Shown here: positions 2,564-46,156 of the stretch, piece after piece
Layout: each line of letters starts with the position of its first letter
How positions within the stretch are numbered: the stretch's first letter is position 1
DNA from: Escherichia phage IrisVonRoten
DNA: 64,000 nucleotides
Sequence record: MZ501075
Reading direction: 5' to 3' (one strand)
The notes under the pieces: generated by a model
Seen by the model: the letters and a program-made list of their open reading frames with translations, nothing else
Told to the model about the DNA's origin: nothing
Databases searched by the model: none
Made by a program: the position numbers and the translations under genes

Positions 2564-5123
2564 CGAGAATCCTTTTCACGTTATCCAGATCTTTACATAC
2601 AGCAATAAACTTATCATCCTTGTACTTGCTGTGGTCTGGATGCTCTTTATCCATCGCAGCTAATTTCTTATACTCGAAATCTGCATCAAGTAGCATTTCT
2701 TTAACGTAACGAGTATATTCGTCATCATCAATACAAGCGATTGATGGGTGCTGTTTCTTCATCTTACCACAAGAATAGTCACGAGAACCTCCAGCTTCAG
2801 AATCTGAATCAATACCAATCGGACAGCCAGGAATACTGATACCACGGTCTTTCTGAATATTACGAATCAGGATTTCATTGTATTGGTCGATCAAATCCTC
2901 ACGAACAATAGCAACTACGGAGTCATGAACCAGCATAACAATCTTCATCTCTTGTTCTAAACCAAGAGAAATGATTTCATTATCTGCATCTACAGCACCT
3001 AAAAGGAGACTATCAGAAGAAGCAGACTGAATGATTGCGTTAAATCCAGAACGAATTTCTTCACCCTGAACGCCACGGTCCTCGGAGTGGATATTATGTA
3101 GACGACGTTTGCGACCAAAGTGACTATAGATAAATCCATGATTCTTGATCTGATCGTGGCACTTATCAATCCAACGCTTAAGCTGTGGGAATTGACTAAA
3201 GTAAGTCTCAATGTACTCTTTAGCATCTGCAACAGTACATTCAACAAACGGTTCACCAGTTTTGGCTGCTTGTTCGAGCAATGCTTCGTTAACAGAATGT
3301 GCTACTTTAGCCGGGCCAGAACCATACAAAATACCAAAGGTAATTGCCTTAGCTGCCTGACGTAGAGCTGGGAACAGCTTCTTAACATCACGAGGTTCAC
3401 ATTGCAATTTAAATACCATGTGGGCGATGTTAGAGTGGAAGTCAGGGTATTTATCAGGTTCATTTCTCATGTTGATAAATACTTGTTGCATATTTCTATC
3501 ACCAGATAGAACAGCAGCATAATAAACTTCCGCAGTTGTTAAGTCCCATGCGATTACACGGTATCCAGGTGGTGCAACTACACAACCCTTAATGATAGAT
3601 TCATCACGGGGTAACTGTTGCAGGTTCAGTTTACCAGAAGAACTCAGACGACCAGAAGTAGTCATGTGTTCGTGGAAACCAGTACGAATGCAACCATCAG
3701 CATCAATGCTCAGAAGAATCTTCTCAACGTAAGTAGAGATCAGCTTAGTCAGCTTACGAATCTCTAGTAGAGTCTTAGCAATTGGATGCTGTGTAGACAA
3801 TTCGTTCAGAGCTTCTGCGTCTGTAGAGTCTGCTCCAGTATCCGTCAATTTACCCGTTGGAGTTAAGCCAACATAATCAAACAGAAGAACACGGAGTTGT
3901 TTAACAGAGTTTGGGTTAAACGCTTCGTTCTGATCTTTCTCTAGCTGAACGACTTCTGGATAAGTATACAGCTTTTCACGAGCTTTATTCAGATTATGGG
4001 TTAACTGGTACTGAGCTTCTTTTAAACGATCAATAGAAATAGGTACACCACGATCCTCAACACGCTGGAGAAATACACAACCAGGCATTAGGACATCATA
4101 ATACAGACTGCAAAGTTTTTCATTCTTCTCAATTTTTGGTAAGAAGAAGTTGTGCAAACGTATGGTGGCATCGGTATCTTTTGCAGCGTAAGGCCACATA
4201 ATATCAAACGGAATTAAATCATAGGTGAAATCTTCTTTCTTGATTTTATGTGCTTTGCAGTAATCATCTTTGAACTTATCTAGTTCAAAGTCATAGTCAC
4301 CCATATCTGTATACTTCATTGCTAGAGATTTCAAGCCATGAGTACCACGACGCTCATCTAGAACATAATGCTGCAACATTGTATCATGGAGTCTGCGTTC
4401 TTTATGTGCTTTATCAAAAGTAAGTCCCAGATGGTACTTATAAAAGTGCATATCAAACTTCAAGTTGTGAAAAACAATAGTGTGGTTTTCACTATCCAGA
4501 ATTTTCTGGAGATAATATACTGCAACCTCTGTGAGACAATCAGAATCGATATATACACCCTGATACTCTTGGTGAGATATAGAAACACCAAGCAGATAAC
4601 CATCTCGACAGTATAGTGCTGAGGTTTCGGAGTCGAATGCGACAGGTCCGATAACCATATTATACACCATCTTGATATATTCTTCTGCCTCATCAGGGTC
4701 AGTAATAGGGCGGTAATCACCAGCTTTTGCAATCTTCTCACGACCATTGATAATATCGTGGATATTCTCTACTGTTGCATCAAAAACTGGTTTCATTTCA
4801 GGTTTAAAGTGTAACTGGGCTGGGCTGATACTCGCAATCCAGTTAGCATATCCATTATACTCTACACGTTTACCGGTATAATCACCAATACCTTTCTTAC
4901 CTGCAAAGTACAAGAAAGGTTCGGCACCTACCAGTATAACAAAATCATAGTCACTCGGGTCAAATGGGTTTTCCGGAGTCCCGATAGTAATATGCTTTTT
5001 GAGCAAACGACCGGACAACTTCTCGTTACACATATGGAATACATCAACTTCCTCGCCGTATAGCTGGAAATGTTTATCATAACGAGTGTTGTTTAGAGCT
5101 TTATCAACTACTGCGATTTTCAA
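2556..5123 (-). CDS. DNA polymerase, family A, with 3'-5' exonuclease domain
   Basis: Exo I motif FDSETSAL, motif B RQAAKAITFGILYG, motif C LVHDS. Confidence 0.9.
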   Translation of the reverse strand: MKIAVVDKALNNTRYDKHFQLYGEEVDVFHMCNEKLSGRLLKKHITIGTPENPFDPSDYDFVILVGAEPFLYFAGKKGIGDYTGKRVEYNGYANWIASISPAQLHFKPEMKPVFDATVENIHDIINGREKIAKAGDYRPITDPDEAEEYIKMVYNMVIGPVAFDSETSALYCRDGYLLGVSISHQEYQGVYIDSDCLTEVAVYYLQKILDSENHTIVFHNLKFDMHFYKYHLGLTFDKAHKERRLHDTMLQHYVLDERRGTHGLKSLAMKYTDMGDYDFELDKFKDDYCKAHKIKKEDFTYDLIPFDIMWPYAAKDTDATIRLHNFFLPKIEKNEKLCSLYYDVLMPGCVFLQRVEDRGVPISIDRLKEAQYQLTHNLNKAREKLYTYPEVVQLEKDQNEAFNPNSVKQLRVLLFDYVGLTPTGKLTDTGADSTDAEALNELSTQHPIAKTLLEIRKLTKLISTYVEKILLSIDADGCIRTGFHEHMTTSGRLSSSGKLNLQQLPRDESIIKGCVVAPPGYRVIAWDLTTAEVYYAAVLSGDRNMQQVFINMRNEPDKYPDFHSNIAHMVFKLQCEPRDVKKLFPALRQAAKAITFGILYGSGPAKVAHSVNEALLEQAAKTGEPFVECTVADAKEYIETYFSQFPQLKRWIDKCHDQIKNHGFIYSHFGRKRRLHNIHSEDRGVQGEEIRSGFNAIIQSASSDSLLLGAVDADNEIISLGLEQEMKIVMLVHDSVVAIVREDLIDQYNEILIRNIQKDRGISIPGCPIGIDSDSEAGGSRDYSCGKMKKQHPSIACIDDDEYTRYVKEMLLDADFEYKKLAAMDKEHPDHSKYKDDKFIAVCKDLDNVKRILGA

Positions 5124-5185: not shown

Positions 5186-6076
5186 TTATACCAAATCTTT
5201 AAGCGATTCAGCAACTAAAATTTCAATACGTTTTGCTAACATATCAATCTCTTCTTTATTTAAGTCCCCAGGGTCTTTACCTTCAGGCAGAAGAAAGTTA
5301 GCAACTACAGGTGTTAAACGCGTTTTTGTACGAATTAGCTTGGCCAGTGCTTGTGCAGCTTTATTACCAGAAGCATCATTATCTAGTAAGATAACAACAA
5401 CTTTTACACCGGCAATAATATAAGGACTGAACTTATCTGCAATGTTATCTGAAGTAAACTGATGTGTACCAAAGCAGCAGGAAGCATAGTCTATACCATT
5501 ATCCTCTAGGTTCAGCATATCAAAGATACCTTCAACTAGAATAAGAACTGGAGTATTATATCGTACAGGAAAAATTGGTGGTGAAACTTGTTTTGGTTTT
5601 ACTAAGTATTTAGGAGGGGCAGAACTGTTTATAGAACGACCCAAAAATAGGATATTGCGTCCAACAGCATCTGTGATTGGGAATACAATTCTGCCTTCCC
5701 AGTCTGCTTGGTGTTGGAAAGCAAAATATTTCTTCAAGGTCTTAGAACTTATACCCCGGAAATCACCTTCGAAAAGGTAAGCAGATTCAGGGATTGCAAG
5801 ATTCGTTGATCCATTCCTAATCTCTGAAATCTTTTTACGTACTTGCGATAGCCTTGGGGACTGTCGGTACTGAGTCTCATTAAAATAATGGTAAATGCTC
5901 GGTATACCTTTACCGAAGCCACAACTCAAGCAGTGCATAATACCTGTTTCAGGGTCAATACGCAAACTTGGGTGTTTATCGTCATGATCTGGATTGAGAC
6001 AACAGATGAGGATGTCCCCACCTGTGTCCTTATATTCAATGCCTTTCAGATCAAGTAGTTCTGTTATTCTACTCAT
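5186..6076 (-). CDS. DNA primase (DnaG-like zinc ribbon + TOPRIM)
   Basis: CCLNPDHDDKHPS...HCLSCGFGKG zinc-binding motif; acidic TOPRIM segment VEGIFDMLNLEDNG. Confidence 0.75.
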   Translation of the reverse strand: MSRITELLDLKGIEYKDTGGDILICCLNPDHDDKHPSLRIDPETGIMHCLSCGFGKGIPSIYHYFNETQYRQSPRLSQVRKKISEIRNGSTNLAIPESAYLFEGDFRGISSKTLKKYFAFQHQADWEGRIVFPITDAVGRNILFLGRSINSSAPPKYLVKPKQVSPPIFPVRYNTPVLILVEGIFDMLNLEDNGIDYASCCFGTHQFTSDNIADKFSPYIIAGVKVVVILLDNDASGNKAAQALAKLIRTKTRLTPVVANFLLPEGKDPGDLNKEEIDMLAKRIEILVAESLKDLV

Positions 6077-39342: not shown

Positions 39343-39420
39343 GGTTCTCAAGCTCATATGGTATGAGCACCCGGCTCATAACCGGAAGGTACGTAGGTTC
39401 GAATCCTCGGGGAGCCACCA
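39343..39420 (+). tRNA. tRNA-Met (anticodon CAU; elongator or Ile2-type)
   Basis: Acceptor GGTTCTC/GGGAGCC, D-stem GCTC/GAGC, anticodon loop CTCATAA, weak T-stem. Confidence 0.6.
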
Positions 39421-39927: not shown

Positions 39928-40004
39928 GGGGGTGTAATCGAATTGGCATAGGTACTGGACTTAAAATTCAGGTTTTGTGGGTTCGAATCCCACCACCCCT
40001 ACCA
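39928..40004 (+). tRNA. tRNA, probable Leu (anticodon UAA) with short variable loop
   Basis: Acceptor GGGGGTG/CACCCCT, anticodon stem CTGGA/TTCAG with loop CTTAAAA, T-arm GTGGG-TTCGAAT-CCCAC; D-arm irregular. Confidence 0.5.
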
Positions 40005-41653: not shown

Positions 41654-41795
41654 TTGCTGAAAGAATTGTTAAATCAATTCAGGCACGCGTAGGAACACTG
41701 TCTCCGTAATTGAAAGATGAGGCACGGTTTGGAGAGGTATGCCGCTACACGCTACGGTGCTAACTCCGTCTAGGTGAAAATCCTAGTCAGCAATA
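41654..41795 (+). ncRNA. long tRNA-like structured RNA (~140 nt)
   Basis: 7-bp terminal pairing TTGCTGA/TCAGCAA, internal hairpin CTAGG-TGAAAAT-CCTAG with non-canonical loop. Confidence 0.3.
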
Positions 41796-41803
41796 TAAAT
41801 TTA

Positions 41804-41886
41804 GGGTCGTTAGCCAAGCGGTTTGGCGGCGGATTGTTAATCCGTGTCGAAAGACAACGTAGGTTCGAATCCTACACGGCCCGCCA
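41804..41886 (+). tRNA. tRNA-Asn (anticodon GUU) with 13-nt variable region
   Basis: Acceptor GGGTCGT/ACGGCCC, anticodon stem GCGGA/TCCGT loop TTGTTAA, T-arm GTAGG-TTCGAAT-CCTAC. Confidence 0.6.
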
Positions 41887-41988
41887 AATTCTGTGTAGAG
41901 TTAAGTAAACCGGTAGCCAACCAGCTATCATTGCTGACATCGAATTCAGCCACAGATACCATTTTCATTAATAACTGAGGAAACAAGC

Positions 41989-42174
41989 ATGTCCAAGAAT
42001 GTGATTGCGCAGCTAGAAGTTCATCGTGATAGTACTATCAACAATATTGAAGTTGAGAAGAAATACATCGAAGAACTTAAACATGATATACTAGTAAGTC
42101 TCAATCGTCTTAATGTACGAAAAGAGTTTCTTAAAGAACTTAATGCAGCTATTGAAAAACTCAAAGCTGAGTAA
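41989..42174 (+). CDS. hypothetical coiled-coil small protein
   Basis: 61-aa ORF with SD. Confidence 0.5.
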   Translation: MSKNVIAQLEVHRDSTINNIEVEKKYIEELKHDILVSLNRLNVRKEFLKELNAAIEKLKAE

Positions 42175-42183
42175 ATAAATTAT

Positions 42184-42260
42184 GCGACCGGGGCTGGCTT
42201 GGTAATGGTACTCCCCTGTCACGGGAGGGAATGTGGGTTCAAATCCCATCGGTCGCGCCA
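42184..42260 (+). tRNA. tRNA-Asp (anticodon GUC)
   Basis: Acceptor GCGACCG/CGGTCGC, anticodon stem CTCCC/GGGAG loop CTGTCAC, T-loop TTCAAAT. Confidence 0.75.
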
Positions 42261-42277
42261 AATAAGGTAGGTTAGCT

Positions 42278-42436
42278 ATGGAACGTAGGGAGTTTACTCC
42301 AGAAGAGATAGAGCAGATAAAAGAATCTGCTATGAAAAATGCTAGAATATCTCTGTCACTGGAAGGTATCATTATTAGTGATGTAAACTTTGAAAAAATC
42401 AAAGCCATAGCTGATGAACTGGAAAAAGTAATTTAA
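42278..42436 (+). CDS. FicA/VbhA-like antitoxin homologue (52 aa)
   Basis: ATG after AAGGTAGG SD; NARISLSLEGI matches the S-x-x-x-E-G inhibitory helix motif recalled for VbhA/YhfG antitoxins; below track cutoff. Confidence 0.5.
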   Translation: MERREFTPEEIEQIKESAMKNARISLSLEGIIISDVNFEKIKAIADELEKVI

Positions 42437-42437
42437 T

Positions 42438-42513
42438 ACATCCATAGCTCAATGGTTAGAGCTACCGCCTCTTAAGCGGAGGGTTCTAGGTTCAAGTCCT
42501 AGTGGGTGTACCA
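42438..42513 (+). tRNA. tRNA-Lys (anticodon CUU)
   Basis: Acceptor ACATCCA/TGGGTGT, D-stem GCTC/GAGC, anticodon loop CTCTTAA, T-loop TTCAAGT. Confidence 0.75.
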
Positions 42514-42539
42514 AATTAAACTAGCACGAGAAATATGCT

Positions 42540-42887
42540 ATGATTAATGCTAAAGAAGAGTTGTTACTTGCCCTAAAGAATACTAAGTCTGAAGTTAAGT
42601 GTATTAAGATAGAATTCGGTTATTATGGGGACAAAGAAGTTTGGGTATTACCAGTAGGTTATACAGAAAAAGATATTGAAGATTTTCTAAATAACCTAGA
42701 CTTTAAATATGATTCTGGTTTTGGTGGACAATTGCTTTATGGTAACGTATGGTTTACTGATGGAACTTGGTTAGAACGTGGTGAATATGATGGTTCTGAA
42801 TGGTGGGAGTATAAGACTACGCCAGCAATCCCAGAAGAATGCCGAACAATTAATGGTGAAGTAGATAATACTTTACGGTTAAACTAA
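42540..42887 (+). CDS. hypothetical protein
   Basis: 115-aa ORF. Confidence 0.6.
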   Translation: MINAKEELLLALKNTKSEVKCIKIEFGYYGDKEVWVLPVGYTEKDIEDFLNNLDFKYDSGFGGQLLYGNVWFTDGTWLERGEYDGSEWWEYKTTPAIPEECRTINGEVDNTLRLN

Positions 42888-42894
42888 TAAAATT

Positions 42895-42999
42895 TCAGTG
42901 CAGAACACGGAGCTAGCAATTCGGAAGTGCTGACTCATGATAAGCTGCCTATGTACTTGCTAAGCGGTCGTGTCCAAGACTCGGACTCTTGCACTGAAA
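42895..42999 (+). ncRNA. structured RNA domain closed by 10-bp long-range helix
   Basis: TTTCAGTGCA at 42895 pairs with TGCACTGAAA at 42990; no ORF. Confidence 0.3.
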
Positions 43000-43009
43000 A
43001 CAATCAAAC

Positions 43010-43130
43010 ATTCTAGCGTGGTTGATGGGGAAACCAGCTTGGCGAGGGCAGAAGCTCGTTCGATTCGAGTGAAAGAATGGTTCTCGTAAGTCCGCACAAG
43101 TGATAACAGGTTCGAGTCCTGTCTAGAATG
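43010..43130 (+). ncRNA. long tRNA-like RNA (~121 nt) with duplicated T-arm
   Basis: Perfect 7-bp acceptor ATTCTAG/CTAGAAT; D-arm TGGT/ACCA; two T-arm hairpins (TTCGATT and TTCGAGT loops); no canonical anticodon arm. Confidence 0.35.
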
Positions 43131-43145
43131 ACACTATAAAGTTTA

Positions 43146-43257
43146 CTTATTATGTAGGTTCCGATAGATCGGCGGGTCTATTCTGGCATTTAAGAGAGGT
43201 CTCGCAAACTTCTTTGTCAGCCGTGGGGTTGGTAGCCTCCAGGTGGCCTACACAATA
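43146..43257 (+). ncRNA. structured RNA domain closed by ~12-bp long-range helix
   Basis: CTTATTATGTAGG pairs with CCTACACAATAAG; internal hairpins; no ORF. Confidence 0.3.
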
Positions 43258-43279
43258 AGTAAATTTATTAAAAATTCAT

Positions 43280-43308
43280 TTGCTATTTTGCTTAATTCTC
43301 TGTATAAT
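43280..43308 (+). promoter_or_regulatory. T5-type early promoter
   Basis: TTGCTA, 17-bp spacer, TATAAT. Confidence 0.7.
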
Positions 43309-43340
43309 ATATCTTATAAAGTGAAGAGAAGGAAAGCTAA

Positions 43341-43499
43341 ATGAAGTATAAAATTGCATCAGTATTCATGTGTACTTGGGTTATTCCTATAGTAATAGTA
43401 GGGTTTAACATAGATAACTTTTCTATCATAGAAAAGTTATTAGGACTAAGTACAGGCTTTACAATGCTAGGATTAAGCATGTTGTGGCTGAAGAAATAA
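43341..43499 (+). CDS. small hydrophobic membrane peptide (52 aa)
   Basis: ATG after GAAGAGAAGGAAAG SD; two predicted TM segments. Confidence 0.5.
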   Translation: MKYKIASVFMCTWVIPIVIVGFNIDNFSIIEKLLGLSTGFTMLGLSMLWLKK

Positions 43500-43503
43500 T
43501 TTT

Positions 43504-43580
43504 CTCCGATTAGCTCAATTGGCTAGAGTACACCGTTTGGGGCGGTGGGGTTGAAGGTTCGAGTCCTTCATTGGAGACCA
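43504..43580 (+). tRNA. tRNA-Pro (anticodon UGG)
   Basis: Acceptor CTCCGAT/ATTGGAG, D-stem GCTC/GAGT, anticodon stem CACCG/CGGTG loop TTTGGGG, T-loop TTCGAGT. Confidence 0.8.
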
Positions 43581-43587
43581 AACAATT

Positions 43588-43662
43588 GCGGGTGGGAGGC
43601 ATAGAGTTCTTCTTAGTCTCATAAGCTAAGTAAGTCCAGGGCAGTACTGGAACCCGCTACCA
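43588..43662 (+). ncRNA. possible tRNA-like hairpin RNA
   Basis: GCGGGTG/ACCCGC terminal pairing with ACCA tail, but no canonical T-loop. Confidence 0.2.
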
Positions 43663-43682
43663 TTTTAATAGGGGATTTCGAA

Positions 43683-43847
43683 ATGAAAGTATTTCGATTA
43701 GTAGTAAGTGATCGACGTTCTAGCAAAGATCGTTCGAAGTATACCTTAGCCCATTATGGTAAAGATGAAAATGAAGTAATGGCTGAATTTGGTATTAACC
43801 ATCCTTACTTAAAAGTCTACTCTATTAAGGAAGTTTATGCTTATTAA
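43683..43847 (+). CDS. hypothetical small protein (54 aa)
   Basis: ATG after AGGGGA. Confidence 0.35.
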   Translation: MKVFRLVVSDRRSSKDRSKYTLAHYGKDENEVMAEFGINHPYLKVYSIKEVYAY

Positions 43848-44310
43848 CAGGGTACTTCAAGCCCTGGATCTTCCAAGGCACTTTACTATTACTGACTCCT
43901 TAATACGTAGGTATATGGAGAAGTATAACGAAATATCTGGTAAAGAAGGTAAACTAAAGTCCTCGGAGTTTAAGTTCTGTTATAGAATGGCAGCGTTAAA
44001 CCTGCTGAAGTATAAAAGGGAGCATAAAATCCCTATAACAGAAGGGTTTGTATATGTAATAGGTAATCCAGCATGGCCTGGACTCTATAAGATAGGTATG
44101 ACAGTAGACGTAAATGAAAGACTGTCTAGTTATCAAACATATTCTCCCTATCGTGATTACAAGTTATACCATTTTAGATTCTCCTCGGACAAGAGAAGAA
44201 CTGAAAAAGCATTACATAGTCTTCTGAAAGACTACAAAGTATCAGGAGAATGGTTTGAAGTACCTCTGTTAGACGCTTTCAAACTATTAGTAGAGAATTT
44301 GGATTGCTAG
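43837..44310 (+). CDS. T5orf172-domain (GIY-YIG-like) protein, putative homing endonuclease
   Basis: GFVYVIGN...LYKIGMT motif; 3' end overlaps start of tRNA-Lys. Confidence 0.6.
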   Translation: MLINRVLQALDLPRHFTITDSLIRRYMEKYNEISGKEGKLKSSEFKFCYRMAALNLLKYKREHKIPITEGFVYVIGNPAWPGLYKIGMTVDVNERLSSYQTYSPYRDYKLYHFRFSSDKRRTEKALHSLLKDYKVSGEWFEVPLLDAFKLLVENLDC

Positions 44311-44378
44311 CTCAACTGGATAAGAGTAGCGGACCTTTAATCCGTCAGTTCTGGGTTCGAATCCCAGGCAATCCACCA
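44301..44378 (+). tRNA. tRNA-Lys (anticodon UUU), C33 in anticodon loop
   Basis: Acceptor GGATTGC/GCAATCC, anticodon stem GCGGA/TCCGT loop CCTTTAA, T-arm CTGGG-TTCGAAT-CCCAG. Confidence 0.6.
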
Positions 44379-44385
44379 AATTTTT

Positions 44386-44459
44386 GCTCGGTTAGTTTAA
44401 TGGGAGAACCCCGTCTTTACACGGCGGTTGCGATAGTTCGATTCTATCACCGAGTACCA
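44386..44459 (+). tRNA. tRNA-Val (anticodon UAC)
   Basis: Acceptor GCTCGGT/ACCGAGT, D-stem GTTT/GAAC, anticodon loop TTTACAC, T-loop TTCGATT. Confidence 0.75.
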
Positions 44460-44484
44460 AGTACAAGAAATTTCAAAAACTCAT

Positions 44485-44513
44485 TTGCTTAATGCTTAAT
44501 TTCTTGTTATAAT
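44485..44513 (+). promoter_or_regulatory. T5-type early promoter driving a ~600-nt ORF-free RNA region
   Basis: TTGCTT, 17-bp spacer, TATAAT. Confidence 0.65.
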
Positions 44514-44551
44514 ATTTATATAAATTGATGAGGAGAAATCCTCATCATAGT

Positions 44552-44738
44552 TCACTAAGGTATTAGCTCGACCTAGGACTGGCTGCCAAAAAGCACGATC
44601 CCTACGATTTGGGAGAAGTTCTAGATTAGTCCACTAGATTCAGCGGCAACTGAATAGTGTATCGGGTTTGCGAGATGACGTAGTTCCTTCCGCTCGAAGC
44701 GAAGGTGCTGTAGTTACGCCGAGCTAATAGCCTTAGTA
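44552..44738 (+). ncRNA. structured RNA domain (~190 nt) closed by long-range helix
   Basis: CTAAGGTATTAGCTCG pairs with CGAGCTAATAGCCTTAG; internal hairpins; no ORF. Confidence 0.3.
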
Positions 44739-44751
44739 AACTAAAGAATTT

Positions 44752-44830
44752 GGGGAATGGGTCTGCATGGAGTGGACACCTCGCTTGCACCGAGGACATC
44801 AGAACGGTTCGATTCCGTTATTCTCCACCA
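44752..44830 (+). tRNA. tRNA-Ala (anticodon UGC)
   Basis: Acceptor GGGGAAT/ATTCTCC with G3-U70 pair, anticodon stem CCTCG/CGAGG loop CTTGCAC, T-loop TTCGATT. Confidence 0.75.
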
Positions 44831-44835
44831 AATAC

Positions 44836-44912
44836 GCGTGATTGATGGAATGGGCATACATACCGTCCTTAGAAGTCGGGTTTTGAGGGTTCGAATCCCT
44901 TGTCACGCACCA
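44836..44912 (+). tRNA. tRNA, probable Leu (anticodon UAG) with short variable loop
   Basis: Acceptor GCGTGAT/GTCACGC, anticodon loop CTTAGAA, T-arm GAGGG-TTCGAAT-CCCTT. Confidence 0.5.
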
Positions 44913-44945
44913 AATTTGATGGTCAGAGTAAATTAAACCTACTAT

Positions 44946-44984
44946 CTCGGTTGAGCTGTTTTAATGGGTTCGAATCCCAGCGAG
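44946..44984 (+). ncRNA. tRNA fragment-like mini-helix
   Basis: CTCG...CGAG stem enclosing TGGG-TTCGAAT-CCCA; no full cloverleaf. Confidence 0.2.
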
Positions 44985-45024
44985 GCGTAACTGCCTGGTG
45001 TGATAGAGGCATCATCTTATTATT

Positions 45025-45115
45025 GGAAGAGCAAATCGAATTGGCGACGAAAACCGCTTGGAAAGCGGCTGACTGGTAAAACGGCTTGAGAGTTCAAATC
45101 TCTCCTCTTCCGCCA
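45025..45115 (+). tRNA. tRNA-Ser (anticodon GGA)
   Basis: Acceptor GGAAGAG/CTCTTCC, anticodon loop TTGGAAA, long variable arm, T-loop TTCAAAT. Confidence 0.75.
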
Positions 45116-45134
45116 AACAATTGAGGTAATAATA

Positions 45135-45482
45135 ATGCTAGCAAAAGATAAAGCTCTAGAGTTTTTAGCATCTTTAGATGAAGATAAGATTATAGATGCA
45201 GCTGAAAAAGCTGGAATGCCTGATTTAACATATCTGGAACGTGCTATTATTGCTCGTGATAAACTACAGAAAGAATTTGCTATTGCTCAGGAGGAGTTTT
45301 ATACTCGCTATAACGCTCTTACTAAGCAAATTGAAAATGAGTGTTCTCATACTTGGGGAGTAACAGAAAACCTAGGTAATGATCACGATGGCTGGTCTAA
45401 AGTAAAAATTACCTATTATCATCGTAGGACTTGTAAAATCTGTGGAAAAGTAGAAAACTTCACTAGTACGAGTGACTATTAG
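45135..45482 (+). CDS. hypothetical protein with C-terminal Cys/His cluster
   Basis: 115-aa ORF. Confidence 0.55.
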   Translation: MLAKDKALEFLASLDEDKIIDAAEKAGMPDLTYLERAIIARDKLQKEFAIAQEEFYTRYNALTKQIENECSHTWGVTENLGNDHDGWSKVKITYYHRRTCKICGKVENFTSTSDY

Positions 45483-45495
45483 TATAATAAATACT

Positions 45496-45585
45496 AGAAG
45501 ATAGGACGTAGTGGTACGTAACTGGTCTTGAAAACCAGCCCGCTGTAGTGATACGGTGATGGTTCGACTCCATTATCTTCTGCCA
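45496..45585 (+). tRNA. tRNA-Ser (anticodon UGA)
   Basis: Acceptor AGAAGAT/ATCTTCT, anticodon stem CTGGT/ACCAG loop CTTGAAA, long variable arm, T-loop TTCGACT. Confidence 0.75.
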
Positions 45586-45601
45586 ACTTATAGGGTAATA
45601 T

Positions 45602-45784
45602 ATGTCTTTAACGAAAACTGTGAAGGTTACACTAACTGATGGCACAGAGTTTAGTGCACAAATAACCTTACTAGAAGACGGTTATTGGGAAGTATATCTT
45701 CCACACGTTAATTCTACTGGTAGAGGATGGACTCAACAACAGGCTATTGTTGATGCTTTAAATGAGGCTTCCGCTGGTTTATAA
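45602..45784 (+). CDS. hypothetical small protein
   Basis: 60-aa ORF. Confidence 0.45.
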   Translation: MSLTKTVKVTLTDGTEFSAQITLLEDGYWEVYLPHVNSTGRGWTQQQAIVDALNEASAGL

Positions 45785-45791
45785 AAATTCT

Positions 45792-45921
45792 TGGAATATG
45801 CCGGAATTGGTAGACGGGACTGCCCAATAGGTTTACTAGGAACATCCACTCCTAGAAATATACCTTAAAAGCGGTTGAGTTAAATGGTCTAACTCATGAA
45901 GGTTCAAGTCCTTCTATTCCT
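45792..45921 (+). ncRNA. long tRNA-like RNA (~128 nt)
   Basis: GGAATA/TATTCC terminal pairing, T-arm GAAGG-TTCAAGT-CCTTC, D-arm-like hairpin with GG loop. Confidence 0.3.
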
Positions 45922-46036
45922 TGATACATCAATGGCTCAAAGTGTAACGGTGCTATTTGATGCGCTTGGAAAGACTTTCCCGACATGCGTTCGGGGGTAA
46001 GCTTCTGAGGCTAGAATAGAAGAGTTTCTGAGAGCC

Positions 46037-46156
46037 GCCACAATTGAAAATTCGTACTCGTCTTGAGCTGCGTGCAATAGGAGATAACTTGATTAGTATT
46101 CTAGAACATGCTAATTGAGGATGGTTTCGCTAACCCTGCGAGTTTTCAATTGTGGC
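46037..46156 (+). repeat. 14-bp perfect inverted repeat pair flanking ~90 nt
   Basis: GCCACAATTGAAAA at 46037-46050 and TTTTCAATTGTGGC at 46143-46156; second arm overlaps the 5' end of tRNA-His. Confidence 0.6.

What the first reader, a model, noticed from the sequence alone, without database searches (positions are those of the whole stretch)
41654..46156. Several long tRNA-like and helix-closed structured RNAs interspersed with canonical tRNAs
Besides about 25 canonical tRNAs in this span, there are ORF-free segments with tRNA-type acceptor pairing and T-arms but 120-140 nt long (41654-41795, 43010-43130, 45792-45921). There are also domains closed by perfect 10-14-bp long-range helices (42895-42999, 43146-43257, 44552-44738, 46037-46156). 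The 43010-43130 element has a perfect 7-bp acceptor helix and two tandem T-arms. These could be stable small RNAs, pseudo-tRNAs left by recombination at homing-endonuclease sites, or processing signals. T5 is reported to encode small stable RNAs of unknown function in its tRNA region, so these may correspond to known species, but their function is unresolved.
Basis: seen in the sequence. Interest (0 to 1): 0.55.

Follow-up and report, generated by a model that had tools for sequence, protein, structure and literature searches.

The report
T5-type stable RNAs among tRNA genes
The flagged segments are real, conserved non-coding RNAs of a T5-like phage: mostly the long-known but still function-less "stable RNAs" of phages T5 and BF23, plus two relatives that the database records I inspected do not annotate. 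They are built either as tRNA bodies carrying a foreign insert where the anticodon loop should be, or as domains clamped shut by a long helix.

Summary
The window is a T5-like phage and the span lies in its tRNA gene cluster.

**Identity.** All seven flagged elements exist at the stated coordinates.
- Five are 95-100% identical to RNAs annotated in the BF23 and T5 GenBank records: RNA2, RNAIV, RNA 2H, RNA1 and RNAIII, all marked "unknown functions".
- Two are unannotated there: E1 (41654-41795) and E2 (42895-42999).

**Architecture.**
- The three long "tRNA-like" elements have tRNA shells (acceptor, D-arm, anticodon stem, T-arm). A 40-70-nt insert replaces the anticodon loop.
- Compensatory base changes across genera support these shells: 94-97% of cells paired against 27-53% in slid controls.
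- The inserts hold invariant motifs.
- E1 also occurs in Vequintavirinae phages. The RNA2 insert also occurs in T4-like Acinetobacter phages and in metagenomic contigs.
- The helix-closed elements are as conserved as the tRNAs and more conserved than shared neighbouring ORFs.

**Interpretation.** They are not debris, spliced tRNAs or any Rfam family. I read them as stable RNAs matured by the tRNA-processing machinery, whose inserts bind some factor, possibly as decoys. That function is inferred, not shown.

**Verdict.** Largely known entities with new members. Moderate interest.

The parts
41654..41795 (+). E1: a tRNA-like shell with about 70 nt inserted in place of the anticodon loop. The shell has acceptor UUGCUGA/UCAGCAA, a D-arm, anticodon stem GGCAC/GUGCU and T-arm CUAGG-UGAAAAU-CCUAG. 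It is not annotated in any record I inspected and is absent from T5 and BF23.
   Evidence: ARAGORN with introns calls 41654-41794. It has no BF23 match. It occurs in 218 phage records, with no RNA annotation in the 40 rows shown. On 8 sequences including Sugarlandvirus and Mydovirus, 96.9% of cells are paired against 27-41% in slid controls. Thirteen pairs changed on both sides, against 0-2 in the controls.
41889..41961 (+). RNA3: a 74-nt tRNA-like RNA ending in ACCA, with a non-standard anticodon-type loop (CCAACCAG) and an 8-nt T-loop.
   Evidence: It is 98% identical to the BF23 misc_RNA rna3, 'tRNA-like RNA with unknown functions'. The anticodon-type stem covaries in L053, GGUAGC/GCUAUC becoming AGCAGC/GCUGUU.
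42893..42999 (+). E2: a roughly 105-nt domain closed by a perfect 10-bp helix. The sequence is present in BF23 and T5 but is not annotated there.
   Evidence: Inverted repeat of 10 nt, 100% complementary. It is 99% identical to BF23 L001 3160-3264, which carries no feature. Mean identity over 22 loci is 98.7%, against 91.6% for the adjacent ORF. The sequences vary too little to test covariation.
43009..43133 (+). RNA2: a class-I tRNA-like shell. It has acceptor AUUCUAG/CUAGAAU, a D-arm, anticodon stem GCUUG/CAAGU, a 5-nt variable loop and a T-arm. About 55 nt are inserted in place of the anticodon loop. The insert contains a second T-arm-like hairpin (GCUCG-UUCGAUU-CGAGU) and the conserved motifs AAUGGUU and CGUAAGUCCGCA.
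   Evidence: It matches BF23 and T5 rna2. On 13 sequences, 94.5% of cells are paired against 30-44% in slid controls, with 18 pairs changed on both sides against 2-4. The insert module is also found in Acinetobacter phages 133 and Acj9. It is also found in metagenomic contigs L090 and L125.
43143..43262 (+). RNAIV: a helix-closed RNA. The mature form by BF23 annotation corresponds to 43152-43254. The P13a-type promoter follows at 43280-43308.
   Evidence: It is 96% identical to BF23 and T5 rnaIV. The closing helix is 16 nt, 94% complementary. Of 35 predicted pairs, 2 show compensatory changes and many show one-sided changes that keep pairing.
44548..44743 (+). RNA 2H: a multi-branched RNA of about 172-190 nt closed by a helix of roughly 17-28 bp. 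It is the first product downstream of the P13b-type promoter (about 44486-44514) and lies 8 nt upstream of tRNA-Ala.
   Evidence: It is 99% identical to BF23 and T5 rna2H. Folding z-score is -3.6. Fourteen of 56 predicted pairs show compensatory changes. A homologue in Pectobacterium phage DU_PP_V has a covarying closing helix and the conserved motif GGCU(G/A)CCAAAAAGCAC.
44913..45024 (+). An unannotated conserved element between tRNA-Leu(UAG) and tRNA-Ser(GGA). It has a closing helix and a T-loop hairpin (UGGG-UUCGAAU-CCCA).
   Evidence: Mean identity over 19 loci is 99.6%. It occurs in 247 phage records. The homologue in Klebsiella phage SEL21 shows compensatory changes in two hairpins.
45790..45933 (+). 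RNA1: a class-II (tRNA-Leu-like) shell with acceptor, D-arm GCCGGAAUUGGUAGACGGG, a long variable arm and a T-arm. About 47 nt are inserted between the strands of the anticodon stem. The apical loop of the insert, AACAUCCACU, is almost invariant (one A-to-G change in 25 sequences).
   Evidence: It matches BF23 and T5 rna1. ARAGORN calls it 'tRNA-Leu(taa)' with a 40-nt intron, and the JLBYU40 record annotates it that way. On 25 sequences from three genera, 94.7% of cells are paired against 40-53% in slid controls, with 11 pairs changed on both sides against 1-2.
45934..46040 (+). RNAI: a 107-nt RNA with an acceptor-like terminal stem GGCUC/GAGCC followed by G-CCA, which is encoded.
   Evidence: It is 97% identical to BF23 and T5 rnaI. 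CCA is invariant. The terminal stem covaries in Sugarland, becoming GGCCC/GGGCC followed by A-CCA. There are two interior types, A and B, with similar nested-helix shapes.
46037..46156 (+). RNAIII: a helix-closed RNA. The mature form by BF23 annotation corresponds to 46045-46150. It ends exactly where tRNA-His begins.
   Evidence: It is 100% identical to BF23 rnaIII. The closing helix is 18 nt, 94% complementary. Folding z-score is -3.2. In other phages the same slot holds at least five different-looking cassettes, all with a 15-17-bp closing helix.

Best explanation
**What they are.** These are genuine non-coding RNA genes maintained by selection in the tRNA cluster of a T5-like phage. They are orthologues of the T5/BF23 'tRNA-like' RNAs (RNA1, RNA2, RNA3) and 'stable' RNAs (RNAI, RNAIII, RNAIV, RNA 2H). 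Unannotated members of the same kinds are E1, E2 and the element at 44913-45024.

**Two architectures.**
- (a) tRNA shell plus insert. E1, RNA1 and RNA2 keep an acceptor stem, D-arm, anticodon stem and T-arm. A 40-70-nt structured insert with invariant motifs replaces the 7-nt anticodon loop.
- (b) Cassettes whose 5' and 3' ends are clamped by a 10-18-bp helix, or by an acceptor-like stem with encoded CCA in RNAI.

**Proposed working (inferred).**
1. They are transcribed with the tRNAs from early sigma-70 promoters.
2. The tRNA shells, and the neighbouring tRNAs, recruit RNase P and the tRNA 3'-end enzymes. These cut the RNAs out of the transcript.
3. The tRNA-like fold or the terminal helix protects them from exonucleases, so they accumulate as stable RNAs.
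4. The conserved inserts then bind a host or phage factor. My best guess is that they act as tRNA-mimicking decoys for a host tRNA-binding enzyme or a tRNA-targeting defence nuclease.

**Confidence by step.** Identity, structure and selection are shown. The processing route is inferred from anatomy. The decoy function is a guess, at about 0.3.
For: **Identity with annotated T5/BF23 RNAs:**

**Structure supported by compensatory changes**
- RNA1.
- RNA2.
- E1.
- RNA 2H.
- RNAI and RNAIV, weaker.

**Conservation**
- The RNA1 insert loop is almost invariant, and a 17-nt stretch of the E1 insert and the E1 T-loop are invariant.
- The RNA2 insert motifs are conserved.
- The non-coding elements are 97-99.7% identical over 19-24 loci, E1 over 8. 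tRNAs are mostly 94-99.9% and widely shared ORFs 80-92%.

**Spread across phage families**
- E1 occurs in Mydovirus tRNA clusters.
- The RNA2 insert occurs in T4-like Acinetobacter phages and in environmental contigs.

**Processing anatomy**
- RNAIII ends at tRNA-His. RNA1 abuts RNAI. RNAI ends in encoded CCA.
- RNA2 in Klebsiella phages ends in U-CCA and directly follows tRNA-Leu.

**Not coding:** 1-nt indels separate lineages in RNA1 and RNA2.

**Context for a defence-related role**
- T5 tRNAs are reported to counter tRNA-cleaving defences (PMC10644984, and the title of PMC11464382).
- The st0 deletion in the tRNA region, which removes RNA3, is tolerated. A paper on T5 mutants with deletions in the tRNA gene region is cited in PMC11464382.
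Against: - I had no expression, end-mapping or binding data. Stability rests only on the depositors' notes.
- E2, RNAIII and the element at 44913-45024 vary too little within Tequintavirus for a covariation test.
- I identified no partner or target. The complement of the RNA1 loop is not enriched in the 64-kb window: 4 matches against 3.96 expected.
- The interior of the RNAIII slot is replaceable by different-looking cassettes. This suggests that there only the clamp matters.
- T5-type RNA1 and RNA2 lack an encoded CCA.
Confidence: 0.7

Rival explanations
1. They are cis-acting processing and stability signals only. The tRNA-like shells and long helices would serve as RNase P, RNase III or RNase E recognition sites and as exonuclease blocks. 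These would punctuate the polycistronic tRNA/mRNA transcripts. The released RNAs would be by-products with no trans function.
For: - Every element abuts a tRNA, another such RNA or a promoter.
- RNAIII ends exactly at the tRNA-His 5' end.
- The RNAIII slot keeps a 15-17-bp clamp while its interior is swapped among at least five different-looking cassettes.
- The position upstream of RNA2 holds E2 in Tequintavirus and a different 52-nt hairpin in SH9 and DU_PP_V.
Against: - The RNA1 apical loop is almost invariant while its stem covaries.
- Insert motifs of RNA2 and E1 are conserved at sequence level across phage families, in shells whose helices have changed completely.
- The interiors of E2 and RNAIII are about 99% conserved, not only their clamps.
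Confidence: 0.2
2. They are decaying pseudo-tRNAs and recombination debris left by homing-endonuclease activity in the tRNA region, with no function.
For: - Homing-nuclease ORFs are interspersed in the cluster.
- A GIY-YIG ORF occupies the E1 position in T5, BF23 and JLBYU40.
- Truncated or chimeric copies exist: the E1 5' half is replaced in L011, the RNA3 5' half in L022, RNA 2H is partly deleted in L023, and RNA2 is chimeric in Kpn3.
- RNA1's D-arm resembles that of tRNA-Leu, by my recollection of the E. coli sequence.
Against: - Compensatory substitutions maintain every shell helix across genera and families.
- Conservation equals that of functional tRNAs and exceeds that of shared ORFs.
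- Presence runs to hundreds of phage genomes.
Confidence: 0.05
3. RNA1, RNA2 and E1 are intron-containing tRNA genes that are spliced into functional tRNAs. For RNA1 this would be tRNA-Leu(UAA), as annotated in phage JLBYU40.
For: ARAGORN's intron mode calls all three. The JLBYU40 record annotates RNA1 as tRNA-Leu(taa) of 134 nt.
Against: - The putative anticodon loops are not conserved among homologues. For RNA1 they read CUUAAAA, CUCAUAAA and CCGAAAAC.
- At 40-70 nt the inserts are far shorter than bacterial group I introns (established knowledge).
- The inserts themselves are the most conserved parts.
- A canonical tRNA-Leu(UAA) already exists at 39928-40004.
- The BF23 depositors list RNA1 and RNA2 as full-length 144-nt and 125-nt RNAs.
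Confidence: 0.03

Closest known systems
T5 / BF23 'tRNA-like RNAs' (rna1, rna2, rna3) and 'stable RNAs' (rnaI, rnaIII, rnaIV, rna2H), in GenBank records AJ604530 and AY692264
   Same: Sequence identity is 95-100% in the same gene order for RNA2, RNAIV, RNA 2H, RNA1, RNAI, RNAIII and RNA3. These are the same entities in another T5-like phage.
   Different: E1 has no counterpart in T5 or BF23, where a GIY-YIG ORF sits at that position. E2 and the element at 44913-45024 are present in BF23 but carry no annotation. The records give no structure, distribution or function.
Phage T4 RNAC and RNAD (species 1 and species 2 RNAs)
   Same: They are small RNAs of 119-139 nt encoded at the end of a phage tRNA cluster. 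Their role was still stated as unknown in 2010 and 2022 (PMC3014915, PMC9697503). By my reading of the sequence, RNAC has a T-arm and an acceptor-like stem and ends in N-ACA, like T5-type RNA2. I did not test that reading further.
   Different: There is no significant sequence similarity. The best local match is 15 nt at E about 0.2 in a tiny database. Homology is not shown, so the relation is analogy only.
Engineered 'tRNA scaffold' for expressing recombinant RNA in E. coli (Ponchon and Dardel; from my own knowledge)
   Same: An RNA of interest is inserted in place of the anticodon loop of a tRNA. The chimera is processed by tRNA enzymes and accumulates stably. This is the same topology as E1, RNA1 and RNA2.
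   Different: It is a laboratory construct. That the natural RNAs exploit the same principle is my inference, not a tested result.
Murine gammaherpesvirus 68 TMERs (viral tRNA-like units linked to stem-loops)
   Same: Both are viral tRNA-like modules that do not decode and sit next to structured RNA. That the TMER modules serve as processing handles is from my own knowledge. PMC4337559 was seen only as a search result and I did not read it.
   Different: TMERs belong to a eukaryotic virus with Pol III transcription, and their cargo is pre-miRNA placed 3' of the tRNA-like unit, not inside its anticodon arm.
tmRNA and bacterial Y RNA-like YrlA (cellular RNAs with tRNA-like domains)
   Same: They combine a tRNA-like domain (acceptor and T-arm) with non-tRNA modules. 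By my recollection of E. coli tmRNA, its pseudoknot-1 region shares short strings (CUCGUAA, CCGCA) with the RNA2 insert.
   Different: ARAGORN finds no tmRNA. There are no Rfam hits to tmRNA or YrlA above noise. There is no G3-U70 pair, no tag reading frame, and I found no segment able to form the second pseudoknot helix.

Membership tests
Annotated T5/BF23 stable and tRNA-like RNAs | Near-identical sequence at the syntenic position of an annotated misc_RNA feature | tested here: met
   RNA2 is 96.7% identical, RNAIV 96.4%, RNA 2H 98.9%, RNA1 95.4% and RNAIII 100% to BF23 features. The same features are annotated in T5 record AY692264. This criterion is not met for E1, which has no BF23 match. 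For E2 the sequence is present but unannotated.
Annotated T5/BF23 stable and tRNA-like RNAs | Accumulates as a discrete stable RNA in infected cells | not testable with these tools
   Only the depositors' notes ('stable RNA with unknown functions') are available. The original papers are not in the searchable library.
Canonical tRNA (Rfam RF00005) | Acceptor stem, D-arm and T-arm in cloverleaf order | tested here: met
   This holds for E1, RNA1 and RNA2. ARAGORN draws the structures and the helices are supported by covariation.
Canonical tRNA (Rfam RF00005) | A 7-nt anticodon loop with a conserved anticodon, and a score at or above the gathering threshold of 29 bits | tested here: not met
   The anticodon loop is replaced by 40-70 nt. 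No RF00005 hit reaches threshold for E1 or RNA2. The 3' part of RNA1 scores 23.9 bits. The putative anticodons are not conserved.
Intron-containing bacterial or phage tRNA | Removing the insert restores a conserved, functional anticodon loop, and the insert has the features of a self-splicing intron | tested here: not met
   The residual loops differ among homologues. The inserts are 40-70 nt and give no Rfam intron hit.
tmRNA | tRNA-Ala-like domain with G3-U70, a tag reading frame and pseudoknots | tested here: not met
   ARAGORN reports no tmRNA. Only noise-level Rfam hits appear, at 12-16 bits against thresholds of 47-70. The acceptor 3-70 pairs are U-A or C-G.
T4 RNAC/RNAD | Sequence homology to T4 rnaC or rnaD | tested here: not met
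   Pairwise BLAST gives only 7-15-nt matches at E of 0.17 or higher.
T4 RNAC/RNAD | A small non-tRNA RNA gene inside a phage tRNA cluster, with unknown role | tested here: met
   T4 annotation is, literature, and the window context.
Any described RNA family (Rfam 15) | A covariance-model match | tested here: not met
   Between 41000 and 47000, at E up to 10, there are only tRNA-clan hits and noise. Nothing covers the interiors of the flagged elements.

The most novel reading that the evidence does not exclude
E1, RNA1 and RNA2 would represent a widespread, undescribed class of phage 'tRNA-scaffolded' RNAs. A tRNA shell would be used purely as a processing and stability chassis. A mobile insert module with a conserved sequence would be the active part. 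The RNA2 insert is one such module: a second T-loop plus a D-loop-like AAUGGUU, which could form a second tRNA 'elbow'. These modules would move between unrelated phage families (Demerecviridae, Straboviridae, Vequintavirinae and uncultured phages). They would act as decoys or inhibitors of host tRNA-binding factors such as tRNA-targeting defence nucleases. If so, this would at last suggest a function for the T5 stable RNAs, and by analogy a lead for T4 RNAC and RNAD.
Probability: 0.2. Interest if true: 0.8.

Novelty: new member of a known kind. Interest (0 to 1): 0.45.

Why it matters
- **An old open question.** Small stable RNAs in the tRNA clusters of T4 and T5 are annotated in the reference genome records, and no role has been assigned. 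Reviews and omics papers still call T4 RNAC and RNAD 'of unknown function' (PMC3014915, PMC9697503).
- **What this analysis adds.** The T5-type RNAs are under strong structural selection. Three of them share one design principle, a tRNA shell with the anticodon loop replaced by a conserved insert. Two of the inserts or RNAs cross phage-family boundaries.
- **Why that helps.** A vague annotation becomes a set of concrete experiments: insert-loop mutants, pull-downs, and challenge with tRNA-targeting defence systems.
- **Practical gain.** It shows that ARAGORN's intron mode, and at least one genome record, misreads one of them as an intron-containing tRNA, and that many records place 'hypothetical protein' ORFs over them.
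- **If the decoy idea holds.** It would add an RNA-based layer to the known use of T5 tRNAs against tRNA-cleaving immunity.

Tried and rejected
1. **Rfam.** At gathering threshold and at E up to 10 it found only tRNA-clan hits and noise. No riboswitch, ribozyme, 6S, Y RNA or tmRNA family matched.
2. **Homology to T4 rnaC/rnaD.** Not significant.
3. **Antisense target for the RNA1 loop.** Within the window there are 4 matches against 3.96 expected, one of which is the loop itself.
4. **Distant loci found through the neighbouring 115-aa ORF (L024-L036).** Of the nine I scanned, six had no tRNA genes and three had only a few. nhmmer found none of the elements in any of L024-L036.
5. **IMG/VR scan with the RNA2 core.** It returned only the isolate genomes already held.
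6. **Bacterial genome scan with the invariant 19-mer of E1.** Three hits in MAG contigs have no E1-like flanks. About four are expected by chance, by my estimate, so no cellular homologue was found.
7. **Metagenome scan with the 17-base RNA2 core.**
   - I estimated the chance expectation to be of the same order as the hits, assuming a collection of about 10^12 bases.
   - Of 81 matches in the loci examined, only 11 have both T-loops.
   - Nine of these are T5-like or Sugarland-like, and two are truly divergent.
8. **tmRNA pseudoknot-1 similarity.** I considered that the RNA2 insert resembles it (shared CUCGUAA and CCGCA). I dropped the idea because I found no segment able to form the second pseudoknot helix, and covariation supports a plain stem (GGGC/GUCC) instead.
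9. **Alternative pairing inside RNA2.** The 5' end could pair with an internal AGAAUG. This is not conserved in the Klebsiella phages, so I rejected it.
10. **Literature searches for the original T5 stable-RNA papers or newer transcriptomics.** Nothing relevant is in the held library.
11. **The SEL21 'tRNA-Ser' annotation over the 44913-45024 homologue.** It is a 7.7-kb feature and looks like an annotation error.

Full report
**What the window is**

The 4.8-kb span is 99.7% identical to Salmonella phage S.Inf 5-2. It is 92-97% identical to many Tequintavirus genomes, and 620 phage records match it. It lies in the tRNA gene cluster, all on the + strand.

- ARAGORN finds 23 tRNAs between 39.2 and 48.6 kb.
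- Rfam adds a tRNA at 39343-39417.
- Relaxed ARAGORN adds tRNA-Ser(GGA) at 45025-45115.
- Only 10-11 of these lie inside 41654-46156.

**Mapping to known annotation**

The BF23 tRNA-region record AJ604530 annotates seven non-tRNA RNAs:
- rna1, rna2 and rna3: "tRNA-like RNA with unknown functions".
- rnaI, rnaIII, rnaIV and rna2H: "stable RNA with unknown functions".

T5 record AY692264 carries six of them. DT57C and AY543070 carry some of them.

|---|---|---|
| 43010-43130 | RNA2 | 96.7% |
| 43146-43257 | RNAIV | 96.4% |
| 44552-44738 | RNA 2H | 98.9% |
| 45792-45921 | RNA1 | 95.4% |
| 46037-46156 | RNAIII | 100% |

These values come from BLAST. Three further points follow from the same comparison:
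- 42895-42999 (E2) is 99% identical to an unannotated stretch of BF23.
- 41654-41795 (E1) has no BF23 or T5 counterpart. A GIY-YIG nuclease ORF lies there instead.

**Check of the observation**

At a relaxed threshold it also calls 41654-41794 and 43010-43130. Each call is a tRNA body with 40-63 nt inserted in the anticodon loop. The relaxed threshold also produces about five doubtful calls elsewhere in the window. I therefore do not treat ARAGORN as sufficient on its own.

The closing helices are real:
- 10 nt perfect for E2.
- 16 nt at 94% for RNAIV.
- 13 plus 15 nt for RNA 2H.
- 18 nt at 94% for RNAIII.

Folding z-scores are modest, from -1.3 to -3.6.

**The tRNA-like trio: a shell with an insert in place of the anticodon loop**

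*RNA1.*
- It has a tRNA-Leu-like class-II shell. By my recollection its D-arm resembles that of E. coli tRNA-Leu.
- I aligned 25 distinct sequences from Tequintavirus, Epseptimavirus and Sugarlandvirus.
- 94.7% of cells pair, against 40-53% when partners are slid. Eleven pairs changed on both sides against 1-2. The covariation score is 0.293 against 0.04-0.09.
- The insert's apical stem covaries while its 10-nt loop AACAUCCACU is almost invariant, with one A-to-G change in 25 sequences.
- The residual "anticodon loop" differs among lineages: CUUAAAA, CUCAUAAA and CCGAAAAC. The "tRNA-Leu(taa)" label in JLBYU40 is therefore a software guess.

*RNA2.*
- RNAalifold shows that GCUUG/CAAGU is the anticodon-stem equivalent. 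It covaries in Sugarland, DU_PP_V and Kamaji.
- The shell is therefore class-I, with a 5-nt variable loop.
- 94.5% of cells pair against 30-44%. Eighteen pairs changed on both sides against 2-4.
- The acceptor is completely different in three lineages: AUUCUAG/CUAGAAU, UACGGGG/UCCCGUA followed by U-CCA, and GGGUACU/GGUAUCC.
- The insert keeps a T-arm-like hairpin whose stem covaries while its loop UUCGAUU stays nearly constant. It also keeps AAUGGUU and CGUAA-N-UCCGCA.

*E1.*
- All four shell helices change with compensation among Markadamsvirinae, Sugarlandvirus and Mydovirus.
- 96.9% of cells pair against 27-41%. Thirteen pairs changed on both sides against 0-2.
- The T-loop UGAAAAU and the insert segment GCCGCUACACGCUACGG are invariant.

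**Distribution beyond T5-like phages**

- E1 occurs in 218 phage records, and no RNA annotation appears in the 40 rows shown.
- These include Klebsiella Mydovirus (Vequintavirinae) phages, where it sits between two tRNA-Ser genes.
- The RNA2 insert plus T-arm occurs in T4-like Acinetobacter phages 133 and Acj9, directly after tRNA-Gly.
- There it is enclosed by a 7-bp helix (GGCGCUG/CAGUGCU and GUCCCUA/UAGGGAU) and has no acceptor or D-arm.
- A metagenome scan was mostly noise. It did yield two divergent full members:
  - L090.
  - L125, which lies in a tRNA cluster and ends in ACCA. Its shell sequence is unrelated but its insert motifs are conserved.
- I found no bacterial homologue of E1.

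**The helix-closed elements**

*RNA 2H.*
- 14 of 56 predicted pairs show compensatory changes.
- A homologue in Pectobacterium phage DU_PP_V has a covarying clamp and the conserved motif GGCU(G/A)CCAAAAAGCAC.
- It is the first product after the P13b-type promoter and a 5' hairpin.

*RNAIV.* It shows 2 compensatory pairs and many one-sided changes that preserve pairing.

*RNAI.*
- It has an acceptor-like stem and an invariant encoded CCA.
- In Sugarland the stem covaries, GGCUC/GAGCC becoming GGCCC/GGGCC. Two interior types exist.

*RNAIII and E2.* Both are nearly invariant, so covariation cannot be tested.

*Conservation.* E2, RNAIII, the element at 44913-45024, RNA3 and E1 are 98.7-99.7% identical across loci.
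- The tRNAs are mostly 94-99.9%.
- Widely shared ORFs are 80-92%.

*The RNAIII slot.* In other phages this slot holds at least five different-looking cassettes of 64-135 nt. All are clamped by a 15-17-bp helix beginning CAAUUGA.

**What they are not**

- They match no Rfam family.
- They are not tmRNA.
- They are not detectably related to T4 rnaC or rnaD.
- They are not protein-coding, because 1-nt indels separate lineages.
- They are not spliced tRNAs, because the anticodons are not conserved and the inserts are the conserved parts.
- They are not mere debris, given the covariation and conservation. Recombination and homing nucleases do nevertheless create truncated and chimeric copies.

**How they most likely work**

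*Shown:* sequence identity with the T5/BF23 RNAs, conserved structures, and strong purifying selection.

*Inferred from anatomy:*
- They are co-transcribed with the tRNAs.
- RNase P and the tRNA 3'-end enzymes excise them. These act on the shells and on neighbouring tRNAs.
  - RNAIII ends where tRNA-His begins.
  - RNA1 abuts RNAI.
  - RNAI and Klebsiella RNA2 end in CCA.
- The tRNA fold or the terminal clamp then stabilises them.

*Guess, about 0.3:* the conserved inserts bind a host or phage factor, acting as tRNA-mimicking decoys.
- T5 tRNAs are already reported to counter tRNA-cleaving defences (PMC10644984, and the title of PMC11464382).
- The st0 deletion in the tRNA region is tolerated. 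A paper on T5 mutants with deletions in the tRNA gene region is cited in PMC11464382. Dispensability would fit an accessory role.
- I found no target. The complement of the RNA1 loop is not enriched in the window.

*Main rival, about 0.2:* the helix-closed elements are pure processing and stability punctuation. This rival is strongest for the RNAIII slot.

**Comparison with known systems, and novelty**

- The closest known entities are the T5/BF23 RNAs themselves.
- T4 RNAC and RNAD are analogues whose role is still unknown.
- The engineered tRNA scaffold and the herpesvirus TMERs work on a similar principle (my own knowledge).
- The finding is mostly a rediscovery of annotated RNAs.
- New here are E1, E2 and the element at 44913-45024 as further members, the common shell-plus-insert design, the quantified covariation, and the cross-family spread of E1 and the RNA2 insert.
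- Verdict: a real feature, a new member of a known kind, of moderate interest.

Noticed in passing
window 43586-43662: A diverged copy of the T5 initiator tRNA-fMet. It keeps the acceptor (UGCGGGU...ACCCGC-U-ACCA) and the anticodon arm with CAU. Its D- and T-arms are replaced, with T-loop GGCAGUA. Neither ARAGORN nor Rfam calls it. The same variant occurs in five other T5-like loci. It could be a pseudo-tRNA or a specialised tRNA mimic.
   Followed up: partly
window 44913-45024: An unannotated element between tRNA-Leu(UAG) and tRNA-Ser(GGA) with a closing helix and a T-loop hairpin. It is 99.6% conserved in 19 loci and occurs in 247 phage records. The homologue in Klebsiella phage SEL21 (L084 248-360) shows compensatory changes.
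   Followed up: partly
window 45025-45115 and 39343-39417: Two tRNAs escape one of the two standard detectors. tRNA-Ser(GGA) is found only with relaxed ARAGORN, and Rfam scores it 24 bits as tRNA-Sec. The tRNA at 39343-39417 is found by Rfam and by relaxed ARAGORN (as tRNA-Met), but not by default ARAGORN.
   Followed up: partly
L042, L043, L054, L060, L076, L077, L078, between RNAI and tRNA-His (equivalent to window 46041-46151): The RNAIII position is a cassette slot. At least five different-looking interiors of 64-135 nt occur in different phages. All are closed by a 15-17-bp helix that starts CAAUUGA and ends UCAAUU.
   Followed up: partly
L054, L075, L078 between RNA1 and RNAI; Sugarland L040 about 4640-4750: Some phages carry an extra element of about 110-135 nt here. 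It has a hairpin, a promoter-like AT-rich box and a conserved small RNA containing an AUC-GUAAG-GAU hairpin. The string CGUAAG also recurs in the RNA2 insert and in T4 rnaC, and E1 has CGUAA.
   Followed up: no
L045 about 5940-5995 and L072 (SH9), upstream of RNA2: A 52-nt helix-closed hairpin (CAGAGUAAAGGCUACAGUAGGUGCACCCUUACGGACUGCUACACCGGACUCUG) occupies the position that E2 holds in Tequintavirus.
   Followed up: no
L043 (Klebsiella phage vB_Kpn_3) 10884-11008: This RNA2 copy is a chimera. It has a Sugarland-type acceptor and D-stem 5' strand joined to a T5-type core, which leaves the D-stem unpaired. It is either a recombinant or an assembly artefact, since the record has sequencing gaps.
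   Followed up: no
window 44526-44547: A 9-bp hairpin (UGAUGAGGA-GAAA-UCCUCAUCA) lies between the P13b-type promoter and RNA 2H, at or near the transcript's 5' end. The terminator scan flags it on the minus strand.
   Followed up: no
L084 (Klebsiella phage SEL21, PV402694): The record carries a 7.7-kb 'tRNA-Ser' feature, which looks like an annotation error. Several other records place 'hypothetical protein' ORFs over RNA1, RNAI, RNA2 or E1.
   Followed up: no
window 46037-46054 with 46139-46156: The RNAIII clamp extends into the GCCA 3' end of RNAI and into the GUGGC 5' end of tRNA-His. In the precursor this 18-bp helix would therefore compete with the tRNA-His acceptor stem.
   Followed up: no
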